Shown: positions 6,124 through 42,429 of the stretch, piece by piece | Position numbering within the stretch: the stretch's first letter is position 1 | Layout: every line of letters starts with the position of its first letter | Origin: Octopus sinensis | Lineage: Eukaryota | Direction of reading: 5' to 3' | Length of the DNA stretch: 64,000 bases | Assembly: GCF_006345805.1 (NCBI RefSeq) | Contig: NC_043000.1 | Span: 56,544,001 to 56,608,000, forward strand | Made by a program: the position numbers and the translations under genes | The notes under the pieces: model-generated | What the model saw: only the letters and a program-made list of their open reading frames with translations | Database searches by the model: none | Told to the model about the DNA's origin: nothing

Positions 6124-7398
6124 TTAAATCAACCAATAAATAATGCAGTTTTTCAATTGCCTGAACTAAAAATCAGAGAAGGACAAGATAAACTACTTGC
6201 ATCAACTTACAATAAAAGCAGGTAGTAATTTTACCTAACCTTATTCTTGGTGTAAGTTTTGAAGAGTGCAGTTCAATTTTAACAGCTATTTTTTCAAAAC
6301 TATAATAGAAGTGACAAAGGAGCATATTCGGCATATTTTACTTCATGAGTTCAATAAAGGCAACACCACACCAGAGAGTGCAAGGAATATTGGTGCAACA
6401 TATGAAGATCAGACGATAAGCATAAGCCTGTGTCGATGGTGGTTCCAGAAATTCTGGGCCAGAAACTACAGCCTAGAATATGAACCTCGTCCTGGAAGAT
6501 CTGTAGAACTTGATGAGGATGTCCTGCAAAACCTGAGGGAACAAAATCTCATCATAAGTTGAGGAACTAGCAGAGAAGCTTGGATTTGGTCATTCAACCA
6601 TTCATCAACACCTCCATGCCATTGGAAAAGTTAGCAAATTAGGTCAATGGGTTCCTTACAAACTTTCCAAGTCTAATCGAATGCAGAGGGTAAATGTGTA
6701 CTCTTCTTTGCTATTATGTCTCACAAATGAACCTTGTTTGGACCAAATAGTGAGTGGTGATGAGAAATGGGTTCTCTATAAAAATGTTAAGTGCCAAAGA
6801 CAATGGGTAGGGAAAGGAGAAACACCAGCACCCCAGGCTAAAGAAGGCCTTCACCCACATAAAATGTTATCTGTTTGGTGGGATATGAAATGTTTAGTTC
6901 ACTTTGAACATTTAAGCCTCAACCAAATGATAACAGACGAGATCTACTGCGAGCAGCTTGAGCGGCTTAAGTCAGTGCTAGAAGAAAAACAACCATCTTT
7001 GGTTTCAAGACAAAAGGTGTTCTTCCTTCAGGATAATGCTTGACCACATACAGCAAGGATGACATTCCAAAGGCTGGACCAATTTGAATGGGAAACCATG
7101 CCCCACCCACCATATTCACCAGACATTGTCTCATCTGATTATCATTTATTCTGCAGTCTTCGAAATCATTTGGATGGAAAAAGTATGAATTCTGTAGACA
7201 GGTCAGAACAGTACTGGAGGAATATTTTTCATCACAGACAAGTGAATTTTGGAAGAGGGCCTTGCAAGTCTACCAGATAGCTGGAGGAGCATTGTAGAAA
7301 ATGAAGGAGAGTGTATTTTAGATGAAAAAAGAACTTTATTTTAATTTTGAAAAATAAAAGAAGTATACAAAAACCGCATTATTTATGGGATGACCCAA
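6124..7398 (+). mobile_element. Mariner (D,D34D) DNA transposon, full length, inactive
   Basis: Imperfect ~29-bp TIRs (ttaaatcaaccaataaataatgcagtttt / aaaaccgcattatttatgggatgacccaa), TA flanks at 6122-6123 and 7399-7400, length ~1.28 kb, with a transposase inside. Confidence 0.92.
6305..7325 (+). pseudogene. Mariner transposase pseudogene
   Basis: Start probably mutated (ATA-EVTKEHIRHILLHEF). Motifs EPRPGR, WVPYKL, IVSGDEKWVLY, FLQDNA*PH and HPPYSPDIVSSDYHLF are present, with 34 residues between the 2nd and 3rd catalytic D. Frameshifts and an in-frame TGA at 7041. Confidence 0.9.
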
Positions 7399-36675: not shown

Positions 36676-37162
36676 AATACTAATTCGAGACAAAACCACT
36701 ATTTTGCAAAACAAACAAGGAAAGACTTAATCAATACATAAAAAATTTTAATATAAAGAAATAAACCGCCACTACAATCGTTTCAGTAGTGGCGGTTTAT
36801 TTCTTTATATTAAAATTTTTTATGTATTGATTAAGTCTTTCCTTGTTTGTTTTGCAAAATAGTGGTTTTGTCTCGAATTAATATTATATAATATTTTACT
36901 ATAAAATTGGATTTAATCCTAAATCTGATTTTTTCCCTGTAAATTTGGATTTATTCCCTAATATTTATTATTATTATATATATATATATATATATATATA
37001 AATATACAACGGGCTTCTTTCAGTTTCTGTCTACCAAATCCATTCGCAAGGCTTTGGTCGGCCCAAGGCTGTAGTAGAAGACACTTGCCCAAGGTGCCAT
37101 GCAGTGGGACTGAACCCAGAACCATGTGGTTGGAAAGCAAGCTACTTACCACACAGCCACTC
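36420..37162 (-). mobile_element. Family A SINE with a palindromic element inserted in its central (TA)n
   Basis: The SINE 3' part (36420-36625) and 5' part (37005-37162) match the intact copy at 45316-45716; the insert spans ~36671-36975. Confidence 0.85.
36681..36880. repeat. Perfect inverted repeat, 95-bp arms, 10-nt loop
   Basis: 36681-36775 is the exact reverse complement of 36786-36880 (checked base by base); loop AATCGTTTCA. Confidence 0.95.
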
Positions 37163-38500: not shown

Positions 38501-38682
38501 TAGAACCAGCACAAATACACACACACACACACACATTAGTACATATATGAGTGTGTGAATGTATCCCTCAAAAGCACTTTCACTCACACGTATACACATG
38601 GCAGAACTTCCGCCTACCAAATTTACTCAGAAGGCTTTGGTTAGCCCAAGGCTATAGTAGAAGACAATAGCACAAGGTGCTG

Positions 38683-38713
<31 letters not shown>

Positions 38714-39261
38714 TGCTTTGTGTGTGCATGTGTGCTACCTATGTATGTACTGGTTCTACCAATACAGCTGTGCTCATATCAGGTCACCACCATCAAAACA
38801 ACAACTGCTCTGCAACTAATCACACACACACGCACTCGCATGTAATGTGCACACATATTACATACACTACAGGTAGAGATGAACAATTTCACAAACAGGC
38901 ACAGACAGGCACAAACAGAAACAAACAGCAAATCATATCATGGTGACTACAGAGTGTCATATTCTGTATTATCAAAGGCAAAAATTAAATTTATTTGGAC
39001 AATTTTCCACTGGAGTTTTACAACGATTTCCATTTAGATCATGAAGCCAGTTTATACAGGTTAGCTAAGAGAATTTACAATCTACATCCATGAATTTGGA
39101 GCAACACCAAGAGGAATTGATCAAAAGAAATTACAGCAGAATACATGACTGAATATTTGGAAGCAAATATTGAGATCTTGTGTGACAGTTTATCTCACTA
39201 TATAATGTAACCACCTACAACTATATAGCTATATCTCCACCCTTCTCATGCTCTGTTATGA

Positions 39262-39302
<41 letters not shown>

Positions 39303-39507
39303 AGATAGTGGTGTCATTCAGACCCAAAGGTGTCAGGTAATGCAGAATAAGTGCTATAGACAGACCATAGGTAAGTTCCAGATTCGGTAATATTGCGAAT
39401 AAAGGGTTCAATGTTGGTTCTATGTCAGCGTGTGTATATAAGAATTTTTTGTGTAATAAAATAAAAAACCAAGGCTGTATAGATATTAGAGCATTTATAG
39501 ATAGAAG

Positions 39508-39559
39508 GTCTTACAGCTGTTTCTAGGATATTAATTAATAATATCCCTTCATCGGAGAT
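39508..39559 (-). ncRNA. Minimal hammerhead ribozyme, variant core (CCGATGA)
   Basis: Minus strand: atct CCGATGA agggatattattaattaatatccta GAAAC AGCT GTA agac; U4 to C substitution in the core. Confidence 0.6.
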
Positions 39560-39594
39560 GGTACTAACTATGACTTAATTTTTCCTCTCACACT

Positions 39595-39646
39595 GTCTCT
39601 GATGAAGGGACATTATTAATTAATATCTTAGAAACAGCTGTAAGAC
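39595..39646 (+). ncRNA. Minimal type I hammerhead ribozyme, canonical core
   Basis: gtct CTGATGA agggacattattaattaatatctta GAAAC AGCT GTA|agac: stem I gtct/agac, intact CUGAUGA and GAAA, palindromic ACAGCUGU stem III, predicted cleavage after A39642. Confidence 0.85.
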
Positions 39647-40716
39647 CTTCTATCTATAAATGCTCTAATATCTATACAGCCTTGGTTTTTATCTTATTAC
39701 GCAAAAAATTCTTATATATATATATATATATATGTATATACATACACGCACATCATCATCATCATCATCATTTAGTGTCCATTTCCCATGCTGACATGAG
39801 TTACACAGTTTGACTAGGATAGGACTGGTGAGCCAGGAAAGTTGTACCAGGCTCAAGTCTGATTTGGCTTGGTTTCCATGGCTGGATGCCCTTCCTAATG
39901 CCAGCCACTCCAAGAGTGTAGTGGGTGCCTTGTACGTGTCACTGGCACGGGTGCCTTTTACATATCATCAGCATAGGCCACGACTACGATTTCGCTTGGA
40001 TTGGCAGTGTGGTAAGTAGTTTGTTTCCTAACCACATAGTTCTAGTTCTTCTCATCATTTGTGGCACCTCAGGCAAGTGTCTTCCACTACAGCCTTAATC
40101 CGACCAAAGCCTTGTAAGTGGATTTGGTAGATGGAAACTGAAAGAATCCCTAAACCTATGACCAACTGCAGATTAGAATTTCTGTCTCTGTATTGTCTTC
40201 TATCTCAGAGTCTTCCAAGCTCTGACACTAAAGTAACTAGCCACTAATCTATAGCATTCCTCACCAAGAAAGGTTTTGGTATTTACAATGGCCCAACTTA
40301 CCCATTTCTTAGTGTAAATGGAATGTGTGTGTGTGTGTGTGCATGGGTGCATGCATTTCAGCAAAAGAGACTGATATAATAAGTAGCAGGCTTAGTAAAA
40401 AAAAAAAGTACTGGGGTTGATTCATTTGACTAAAATTCTTCAAGGTGGTGCTCCAGTATGACCACAGTGTAATGACTGAAATGAGTCAAAGATAAAAAGA
40501 TAGTACAACATTATATGTATGATATGTATGTTGCAATGCGAATGTGGACGTGTACATACATACATGCATGCATACCAATGTGTGGCGAACTTGTAAGTAC
40601 GTCAATTCATGCAGGAAGCACCTCACACAATTTTCAAATTACAGTAAAAAAAAAAAGATACCTCAATTTACCACAATGTTCTTGCAAACACACACACATT
40701 CAACTACAGCAGCAAA

Positions 40717-41220: not shown

Positions 41221-41286
41221 CTTGATAGTGATTTTATGTCGCCTTCAGTAATCCCAAGTTCTGAAACAGCTTCATAATAAATGCAA
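41221..41286 (-). CDS. Candidate 66-nt coding exon
   Basis: Minus strand ataattttatag|...TCAAG|gttaac; only one frame is open, CIYYEAVSELGITEGDIKSLS (phase 2 to 2). Confidence 0.4.
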
Positions 41287-42429
41287 CTATAAAATTATCA
41301 TCTCCATATAAGCAAAAGAGACTTTTATATTATAAGACAAAAATGACAGTTAACCATAAAGATGTAACATTTTGATGTTTAGAGAGAAAGAGAAAAAAGA
41401 ACAGCTCGGGAGGTAGTTATTTAATTTCTTTTCTTTTTTTTTCAGATTATTTTAGCTATCATGGCTAAGGCCATGCTGGAGCACTGGCTTGACGCCAAGC
41501 AAATTCTTGAGAAACTAATTAGTTTTTCCTTGAGATAATTCACTTGGAAAACTTGGAAAAATTTTTGCAGTTTGATCCATTATCATAAAATCCTCAAATA
41601 AAACTTAAGGCTGAAAAAATCAATAATGTGCAGTATGAATGACTCCAACAAAATGTCCTAGGTTATCGCAGTTGGATGCAGTTTCAGCAAGACTATGTTG
41701 ACGGAGAGCAATGACTAGTTTAGATGAACATAAAAAGCTGGGAACATTGCTGACACAAATGTAATCTACTAAAATGAAGAAACATTGTGCAAAGCAACTT
41801 ACTGACTACTAAAACTATGTCTGCTTCTATTCTTGCTGCTGGCTTAAATTTATAGCTTTATGGTTAAGGCACTAGACACATAAGCTACCTCTGTCTCAAA
41901 ATAATCCTAAAGTAAATAGTGAACTTGTCAGTAGTGAAGCCATAAACCAATATGAAAGACAGGTTTGCAGTTGCTGTAAACATATAAATCACCATATCTA
42001 AACCAGTGCATAACAGGAACTTATTTTACTAAATGGATTGAGAAAAAGGAAGGTAATTCCTAGTGGGATTTGAACTCAGGATTAAGGGATATAAAGCACC
42101 ATCTGAGCATGGCCGTTGCCAGTATCGCCTGACTGGCCCTCGTGCCGGTGGCACGTAAAAGCACCCACTACACTCTCGGAGTGGTTGGCATTAGGAAGGG
42201 CATCCAGCTGTAGAAACTCTGCCAGATCAGATTGGAGTCTGGTGCAGCCATCTGGTTTGCCAGACTTCAGTCAAATCATCCAACCCATGCTAGCATGGAA
42301 AGTGGACGTTAAACGATGATGATAATGATATTAACTCAGCCAACTACAACAGAATGATAGAATTAAAAGATTATTATTTTGAAGCTTGGATTGAAATAGT
42401 CCTGTTCCAGGGTAATGAGGCCTGGGTTG

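What the first reader, a model, noticed from the sequence alone, without database searches (positions are those of the whole stretch)
39435..39720. Twin divergent hammerhead ribozymes forming a ~285-bp palindromic mini-element
Seen: an inverted repeat whose inner ends each encode a complete minimal type I HHR, one per strand, pointing outward from a ~37-nt spacer. The plus copy has a canonical core (gtct CUGAUGA .. GAAAC AGCU GUA|agac) and the minus copy has CCGAUGA. There is no ORF. Known: PLE-associated minimal HHRs with a palindromic stem III cleave mainly as dimers, and PLE insertions can have inverted terminal copies. Inference: a transcript from either strand contains one ribozyme plus its antisense, so it can self-cleave co-transcriptionally or fold into a ~125-bp hairpin that silences the ribozyme. 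It may be a non-autonomous, retrozyme-like palindromic element. It lies ~1.5 kb from candidate exon 41286-41221, and the copy on that gene's sense strand is the mutated one.
Basis: partly seen in the sequence, partly recalled or inferred. Interest (0 to 1): 0.78.

Follow-up and report, generated by a model that had tools for sequence, protein, structure and literature searches.

The report
Fold-back stump of a Penelope retrotransposon
This palindrome is an ordinary decayed insertion of a common Penelope-like jumping gene, in which two cut-short ends are joined head to head and each carries the element's predicted self-cutting RNA; across many copies the break points pile up beside the predicted cut site, which possibly records that ribozyme at work.

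Summary
The inverted repeat and both hammerhead-like motifs are real, but they are not a distinct mini-element. The insertion spans 39300-39718 between (TA)n tracts. It is two 5'-truncated 3' ends of one Penelope-like retrotransposon (PLE) joined head to head at 39562|39563; one arm carries a 135-nt tail. Longer copies lead into an RT plus GIY-YIG ORF with the Hydra-clade motifs. Of 126 tail-picked loci, 77 have an inverted arm and 13 have twin ribozymes, each with its own junction; this junction is unique in the genome. Such inverted copies, and opposite-strand twin hammerheads, are already published. One unexpected result: in two families, 5' break points pile up just downstream of the predicted cleavage site and nearly vanish upstream (30 vs 4; 17 vs 0). 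This may be a genomic footprint of in-vivo self-cleavage, or of RT stalling at the fold. Interest 0.33.

The parts
39258..39299 (.). (TA)n target tract, left flank
   Evidence: sequence; 87 of 98 pattern-picked tail ends lie next to (TA)3 or longer
39300..39562 (-). Arm 1: 5'-truncated 3' end of the PLE with tail; runs from -51 to about +212 relative to the predicted cleavage site
   Evidence: 8 substitutions in 263 nt against the family majority
39300..39434 (-). Tail, present on this arm only; in fuller copies it runs on into the 5' UTR and the ORF start
   Evidence: L147 matches +110..+211 at 100% and reaches the ORF start codon about 53 nt later; L143, L144 and L149 are similar
39508..39559 (-). 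Hammerhead-like motif, minus copy: family core CCGAUGA, intact stem II, stem I cut to 3 bp by a CpG G-to-A change; predicted cleavage after 39512
39562..39563 (.). Head-to-head junction of the two arms, blunt, specific to this locus
   Evidence: blastn break 39562|39563; 1 genome-wide match for the junction 21-mer at up to 1 mismatch
39563..39718 (+). Arm 2: inverted 5'-truncated copy without tail, from -80 to about +76, ending at the element's internal TATATA
   Evidence: 4 substitutions and 1 deletion in 156 nt; most inverted arms end at about +76
39563..39591 (+). Unpaired loop (the 'spacer'): ordinary upstream element sequence that only arm 2 retains
39595..39646 (+). Hammerhead-like motif, plus copy: CUGAUGA, likely by CpG decay; stem II carries an A-C mismatch and an added G-U; predicted cleavage after 39642
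39712..39742 (.). (TA)n target tract, right flank (overlaps the arm end by TA microhomology)
   Evidence: sequence

Best explanation
It is a decayed stump of a Penelope-like retrotransposon with Hydra-clade motifs, made of two 5'-truncated 3' ends joined head to head, likely produced in one insertion event into a (TA)n microsatellite. Shown here: the two arms, their distinct 3' ends (about +212 with tail, about +76 without), the (TA)n flanks, the unique junction, and the link to an RT plus GIY-YIG ORF. Inferred, by analogy with the anole Poseidon protein, which nicks both target strands and starts reverse transcription at two internal sites: the element's protein nicked both strands of the (TA)n tract, primed one cDNA at each TA-containing start site, both cDNAs stopped at about the same place in the RNA, and repair joined their ends. 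Both arms happened to run past the ribozyme (about 1 tail-bearing locus in 10), so the twin ribozyme is a by-product. A read-through transcript would most likely fold into the long hairpin and not cleave; the copy has since drifted about 3% per arm.
For: Same palindromic layout at about 40 other scored loci. The tail is shared by most relatives; 859 exact tail 23-mers, control 0. Walking 5' gives about 1 kb of 3' UTR, then GIY-YIG and RT; the endonuclease piece aligns to the full-length RT-EN protein P0002 (E 5e-16). First-look candidates fall from 1632 (tail) and 1483 (3' UTR) to 45 (ORF 5' end), as expected for 5' truncation. 77 of 126 tail-picked loci have an adjacent inverted arm and 13 have two whole ribozymes; the two break points are coupled (Spearman 0.58, n=65, median offset 0). 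L092 is the same structure with a 1.12-kb inverted arm, 99.1% identical, with a ribozyme on each arm. The two arms of a locus share subfamily variants (4.1% shared-derived vs 3.7% private per arm, 39 loci). The layout, the tail and the (TA)n preference are described in PMC8557442; two-strand nicking and two start sites in PMC11167929.
Against: No intact ORF was seen in any copy examined, and Pfam gave only a sub-threshold GIY-YIG hit (E 0.9) and nothing for three RT fragments, so the clade call rests on motifs and homologues, not on a tree. The tail (135 nt or more) is longer than the 30-40 bp given for PLEs, and the element (about 4 kb, estimated from pieces) is longer than the usual Hydra element (<3 kb). 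The joining step is not settled: snap-back synthesis followed by deletions at the palindrome centre would leave a similar product.
Confidence: 0.93

Rival explanations
1. A non-autonomous palindromic, retrozyme-like mini-element that moves as a 285-bp unit.
For: Dozens of loci look alike at 79-92% over the whole palindrome. A few short junction types recur (antisense arm ending at 0 to +3 joined to +6 or +10).
Against: This junction is unique; the loop differs among the 22 distinct loci aligned and among 13 of 13 twin loci; arm length varies continuously; the tail sits on one side only; an autonomous-type parent exists. Non-LTR retrozymes are defined as tandem direct repeats (10.64898/2026.07.22.740005), which this is not.
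Confidence: 0.03
2. A host-recruited RNA switch in an intron: the transcript either self-cleaves or folds into the hairpin, tuning the nearby gene.
For: Any transcript through the locus is predicted to form a hairpin of about -180 kcal/mol on either strand. A possible single-copy exon lies 1.5 kb away.
Against: Both ribozymes carry damaging private changes at the family's background rate. The hammerhead fold is less stable than the alternative fold even without the hairpin (-1.3 vs -10.4 and -6.3 vs -9.5 kcal/mol). The exon and gene are unverified.
Confidence: 0.02
3. A MITE, a miniature DNA transposon with terminal inverted repeats and a TA target duplication.
For: Short, palindromic, high copy, TA flanks.
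Against: The ends are not inverted copies of each other (tail on one side); copies are 5'-truncated to variable depth and continue into an RT ORF.
Confidence: 0.01
4. An assembly artefact (a fold-back read or a collapsed repeat).
For: No contig in four other runs spans the whole stretch, which the tool says proves nothing for such a repeat.
Against: The arms differ at several sites, each arm carrying its own changes, both end at family-typical ends, and the layout recurs in 77 of 126 loci.
Confidence: 0.01

Closest known systems
Hydra clade of C-terminal EN+ Penelope-like elements (Craig et al. 2021, PMC8557442), including Penelope-13_HM and Hydra-1_Obim
   Same: RWK and DKT motifs, CxCX5C linker, no CCHH, CxxC and CxH around the conserved E and N, (TA)n targets, hammerhead in the pLTR. 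Penelope-13_HM is listed with a 5'-truncated inverted copy and a hammerhead on each strand; many Hydra hammerheads have an extra base on both sides of the stem II base (supplement files S1 and S2).
   Different: A different family from Hydra-1_Obim (its listed ribozyme and N-terminal protein differ by eye; no alignment run). About 1 kb of 3' UTR and a tail of 135 nt or more. The core is CCGA, whereas all Hydra hammerheads in that table have CUGA.
Minimal hammerheads of metazoan PLEs (Cervera and de la Pena 2014, PMC4209133)
   Same: Long stem II, 4-bp stem I, an unpaired base before stem II, palindromic stem III. The paper reports dual motifs 100-700 bp apart on opposite strands in Schistosoma, attributed to truncated PLEs.
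   Different: U4C core, a second extra purine after stem II, and G-U in place of G10.1-C11.1 in the younger subfamily.
Poseidon element PAc of Anolis (Frangieh et al. 2024, PMC11167929)
   Same: Two internal RT start sites bracketing the tail, AT-rich targets, tail continuous with the pLTR-ORF junction.
   Different: There the ribozyme overlaps the ORF start, cleavage was not needed for insertion in vitro, and no RNA-seq ends were found at the cut site; here the ORF starts about 265 nt downstream and genomic break points cluster near the predicted cut.
Non-LTR retrozymes of animals (10.64898/2026.07.22.740005; PMC7229834)
   Same: Short, non-coding, type I hammerhead, derived from PLE pLTRs.
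   Different: Those are tandem direct repeats that yield circular RNAs; this is an inverted pair with a locus-specific junction.

Membership tests
EN+ Penelope-like element | Single ORF with RT and C-terminal GIY-YIG endonuclease | tested here: met
   RT motifs (FDI, YRDD) upstream of a GIY-YIG-type domain in L092, L127, L128, L138, L147; homologues P0001-P0004. All copies seen are broken; Pfam hits were weak or absent.
EN+ Penelope-like element | Partial tandems forming pLTRs, and an optional tail at one end | tested here: met
   Upstream pLTR or tail joined to the ORF start in L143, L144, L147, L149; the tail is on one arm only.
EN+ Penelope-like element | Heavy 5' truncation with an inverted 5'-truncated copy adjacent at the 5' end | tested here: met
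   77 of 126 loci; candidate gradient 1632 to 45.
Hydra clade PLE | RWK motif and DKT in place of DKG | tested here: met
   RRMRWK in L140 and L153; SDKTGNMY in L143, L147, L148, L153; L127 reads DKA.
Hydra clade PLE | CxCX5C linker; CCHH absent; CxxC and CxH flanking the conserved E and N | tested here: met
   CNCRPGTTC; at most one Cys in the GIY-YIG core; CKLCLKE ... LLNKHNE ... CNH.
Hydra clade PLE | Insertion into (TA)n | tested here: met
   87 of 98 tail ends lie beside (TA)3 or longer.
Hydra clade PLE | Generally shorter than 3 kb | tested here: not met
   About 4 kb estimated from overlapping pieces; the paper says 'generally', so this is a difference, not an exclusion.
Hydra clade PLE | Placement in the RT phylogeny with the reference Hydra elements | not tested
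   The reference proteins were seen only as text in a supplement and were not available as stored sequences.
Type I minimal hammerhead | Core CUGANGA ... GAAA ... UH | tested here: inconclusive
   All core positions match except position 4: C in 83 of 100 family A copies and 15 of 53 family B copies. PMC3088659 notes that U4C lowers activity in vitro yet suffices in a viroid in vivo.
Type I minimal hammerhead | Stems I and II, palindromic stem III | tested here: met
   GUCU/AGAC, a stem II of 6-11 bp that changes length and sequence between families while staying paired, and AC-AGCU-GU; the ribozyme block is 75% identical between families A and B (shuffled 47%) while the flanks are near background.
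Type I minimal hammerhead | G10.1-C11.1 pair at the base of stem II | tested here: inconclusive
   G-U in family A (95 T, 5 C of 100), G-C in family B (46 of 52) and in some older A copies, with one extra base on each side.
Type I minimal hammerhead | Self-cleavage (monomer, dimer or protein-assisted) | not testable with these tools
   Needs an in vitro assay; only contigs, no raw RNA reads, were listed.
Non-LTR retrozyme | Tandem direct repeats, each with a hammerhead | tested here: not met
   One inverted pair; no other copy of this family's 3' 1.8 kb in the window.
MITE | Terminal inverted repeats at both ends with a conserved interior | tested here: not met
   Asymmetric ends and variable interior.

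The most novel reading that the evidence does not exclude
Hydra-clade hammerheads, including the U4C form, cut the element's RNA in vivo, and the roughly 215-nt cleaved 3' piece is itself a major template for insertion: both cDNAs run off the same cleaved 5' end and are joined head to head, leaving hundreds of small palindromes whose centres mark the cut site. The genome would then hold a countable record of PLE ribozyme activity.
Probability: 0.45. Interest if true: 0.62.

Novelty: new member of a known kind. Interest (0 to 1): 0.33.

Why it matters
The locus itself is ordinary transposon debris. The family statistics matter more. The role of hammerheads in endonuclease-bearing PLEs is called unclear in PMC8557442, and PMC11167929 found cleavage dispensable in vitro and saw no RNA ends at the cut site. 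A step in 5' break points at the predicted cut, seen in two families whose flanking sequences differ, gives a cheap test that can be run on any genome rich in PLEs. The coupling of the two arms' break points also constrains how PLE inverted repeats form. Hundreds of such palindromes in introns could be a source of double-stranded RNA (inference, untested).

Tried and rejected
Rfam found no hammerhead family. Pfam did not recognise the RT fragments and gave a weak unrelated hit on a low-complexity piece, E 0.028 and below its cutoff; rejected as chance. I first read the endonuclease as Neptune- or Nematis-like from memory; the published motif list pointed to Hydra instead. A MITE and a conserved mini-element were rejected. 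A microhomology-only model for the break-point pattern predicted 1-12% of arm ends in -1..+9 and 21-76% in -30..-8 across its settings, against 30 of 86 and 3 of 86 observed, so it was rejected as the sole cause. A sharp single-base spike at the cut site was not confirmed: the 45-hit genome-wide pattern gave 8 of 40 breaks at -1/0, several of them indel artefacts, and its filter excludes the commonest junction at 0; family B peaks at +8..+24; the 28 discovery loci alone are not significant (p 0.10 and 0.26). No RNA holder was listed, and contigs from four runs could not show ends or span the locus. The candidate exon matched no solved structure, and a crude exon scan found no convincing gene model. 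Two look-ups of earlier scan findings returned nothing. Lunse et al. 2017 on PLE hammerhead variants was not held; it and its supplements may already list U4C forms.

Full report
Observation. The inverted repeat is real, and my motif scan finds exactly two hammerhead-like motifs in the 64-kb window, one per strand, pointing outward. Rfam does not call them. Positions below are counted from the predicted cleavage site (0 = first base after GUA) on the element's sense strand. The host is probably an octopus; that rests on recalled features (2.72 Gb, microsatellite-rich) and on no call.

The thing is larger than reported and belongs to a big family. A search of the own genome scored 40 of 3417 candidates, and nearly all matched the whole palindrome. 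Alignment of 22 distinct loci showed that the left flank is shared in most of them up to a (TA)n tract at 39300 and that the loop differs among them. An exact 23-mer of that tail occurs 859 times, control 0. Against the family majority, the insertion splits at 39562|39563 into a minus-strand arm (-51 to about +212, with tail) and a plus-strand arm (-80 to about +76, without tail). The junction 21-mer has one match in the genome at up to one mismatch.

The parent is a Penelope-like retrotransposon. Walking upstream led through about 1 kb of T-rich 3' UTR into a GIY-YIG-type domain and an RT. Four unnamed full-length relatives of 671-723 aa were found, and the endonuclease piece aligns to one at E 5e-16. 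The motifs are those listed for the Hydra clade in section 11 of PMC8557442: RWK, DKT, CxCX5C, no CCHH, CxxC and CxH, and (TA)n targets (87 of 98 tail ends). No tree was built and no intact ORF was seen. In L143, L144, L147 and L149 the tail runs on into the 5' UTR and the start codon, as for the anole element whose two RT start sites bracket the tail (PMC11167929). First-look candidates drop from 1632 at the tail to 45 at the ORF 5' end.

How common is the twin ribozyme? I picked loci by the tail alone, so without regard to inversion: 98 of the 100 listed places (one was already held as L039, one lay inside another fetched region) plus 28 of the 30 loci (the window and one duplicate dropped). 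Of these 126, 77 have an adjacent inverted arm by a conservative automatic call, 13 have two whole ribozymes and 10 have one; the 13 have 13 different break pairs. L092 is the same structure with a 1.12-kb inverted arm. The two break points of a locus are coupled (Spearman 0.58, 65 pairs, median offset 0, 43 within 20 nt), and the arms share subfamily variants, so both arms likely came from one template. This layout is in print. PMC8557442 describes an inverted 5'-truncated copy and a one-sided tail, and its supplement lists Penelope-13_HM with a hammerhead on each strand. PMC4209133 reports dual minimal hammerheads 100-700 bp apart on opposite strands.

The ribozymes. In 100 aligned family A copies (a few loci may be counted twice) core position 4 is C in 83 and T in 16; the paired G is A in 9, and a neighbouring CpG decays at a similar rate (17 and 16), so the T is likely methyl-CpG decay. 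A second family (B; endonuclease DNA about 65-67% identical) keeps the ribozyme block at 75% identity against 47% shuffled, while three flanking segments sit at 48-60% against 50-56% shuffled. Stem II changes length and sequence but stays paired. This points to selection on the ribozyme in the active ancestors. Family B is mixed at position 4 (38 T, 15 C of 53). U4C is reported to weaken but not abolish activity (PMC3088659 passage). Activity was not testable here.

An unexpected pattern. I first noticed break points near 0 in the loci. In the independent 98 loci, tail-arm 5' ends number 30 in -1..+23, 4 in -26..-2 and 8 in +24..+48 (p 8e-4 and 7e-6, corrected for arms at risk); 8 lie at -1/0. 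In family B (76 loci: 80 fetched minus 2 query loci and 2 duplicates; three further loci share one junction outside the tested range) the counts are 17, 0 and 4 (p 4e-5 and 6e-4). Scanning all positions, the best step lies at -7 in A and at -4 to -1 in B, and none of 300 constant-rate simulations matched it in either family. L194 has both arms starting exactly at 0. Against: the 25-nt windows were set after seeing the family A data; the 28 discovery loci are not significant alone; most ends at 0 in A are ambiguous by up to 3 nt through a TCT microhomology; the peak in B is at +8..+24; ends in older copies are called a few bases short; the genome-wide pattern census showed no sharp spike; and breaks inside the stem II loop get reassigned upstream. 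A microhomology-only null did not reproduce the pattern. My reading: run-off from ribozyme-cleaved RNA with some trimming, about 45%; RT stalling at the edge of the folded or protein-bound ribozyme, about 35%; other causes, such as a preferred length of the second cDNA or palindrome instability, about 20%. Searches did not surface a paper reporting such a step, but the library lacks most subscription papers.

Mechanism for this locus. Shown: anatomy, flanks, parent family, uniqueness of the junction, decay of about 3% per arm. Inferred: two-strand nicking of (TA)n, priming at two TA-containing sites, coupled termination, end joining. Here both cDNAs passed the ribozyme, so the template was uncleaved RNA. 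A transcript through the locus is predicted to form the long hairpin, and even alone each copy folds more stably in a non-ribozyme form, so cleavage here is unlikely. Nothing ties it to the nearby candidate exon.

Papers as seen: PMC8557442, passages, section 11, supplement part 2 of 59 and search hits; PMC4209133 and PMC11167929, parts 1-2 of 4 (plus passages of the latter); bioRxiv 2026.07.22.740005, part 1 of 5; PMC6765202, PMC3088659 and PMC7229834, passages; Lunse et al. 2017, nothing (not held), so whether U4C is already listed among PLE hammerheads is open.

Verdict. The finding is a known kind of PLE insertion from a Hydra-type family that appears distinct from the one published octopus Hydra element. 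Interest 0.33, carried mostly by the break-point step.

Noticed in passing
L092:2285-7142: A 3.7-kb copy with a 1.12-kb inverted arm 99.1% identical to its partner, although copies differ from each other by 8-15%; L094 likewise has a 229-nt arm at 99.1%. Either young insertions from diverged templates or conversion between arms.
   Followed up: partly
L144:991-1286: An upstream pLTR in which most of the ribozyme (-39..+8) is deleted, directly ahead of the ORF start.
   Followed up: no
L157-L254, tail ends: Three alternative tail ends, each followed by TA (57 short, 18 middle, 9 long, 14 other of 98), suggesting several internal RT start sites chosen by pairing with the (TA)n target.
   Followed up: partly
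L047, L049, L037, L042, L032 (sense strand across ribozyme and tail): One reading frame stays open for about 95 codons across the ribozyme and tail in several copies, without a start codon; probably chance in short AT-rich sequence.
   Followed up: no
L300, L149, L151: A third related family with a shorter stem II and the same ribozyme block; L300 holds two tandem 3' ends.
   Followed up: partly
window 41221-41286 (-): Single-copy 66-nt stretch with AG and GT ends and an open 21-aa frame; no match among solved structures; gene unknown.
   Followed up: partly
window 6558-7043 (+): A 161-aa frame that looks like a fragment of a Tc1/mariner transposase (recalled resemblance).
   Followed up: no
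window 37011-37162, 38608-38680, 39755-39931, 39999-40150, 42158-42329: Copies of other short interspersed repeats in both orientations around the insertion.
   Followed up: no
L045:1-3131: The whole short palindromic insertion with its flank is duplicated in tandem about 400 bp apart.
   Followed up: no
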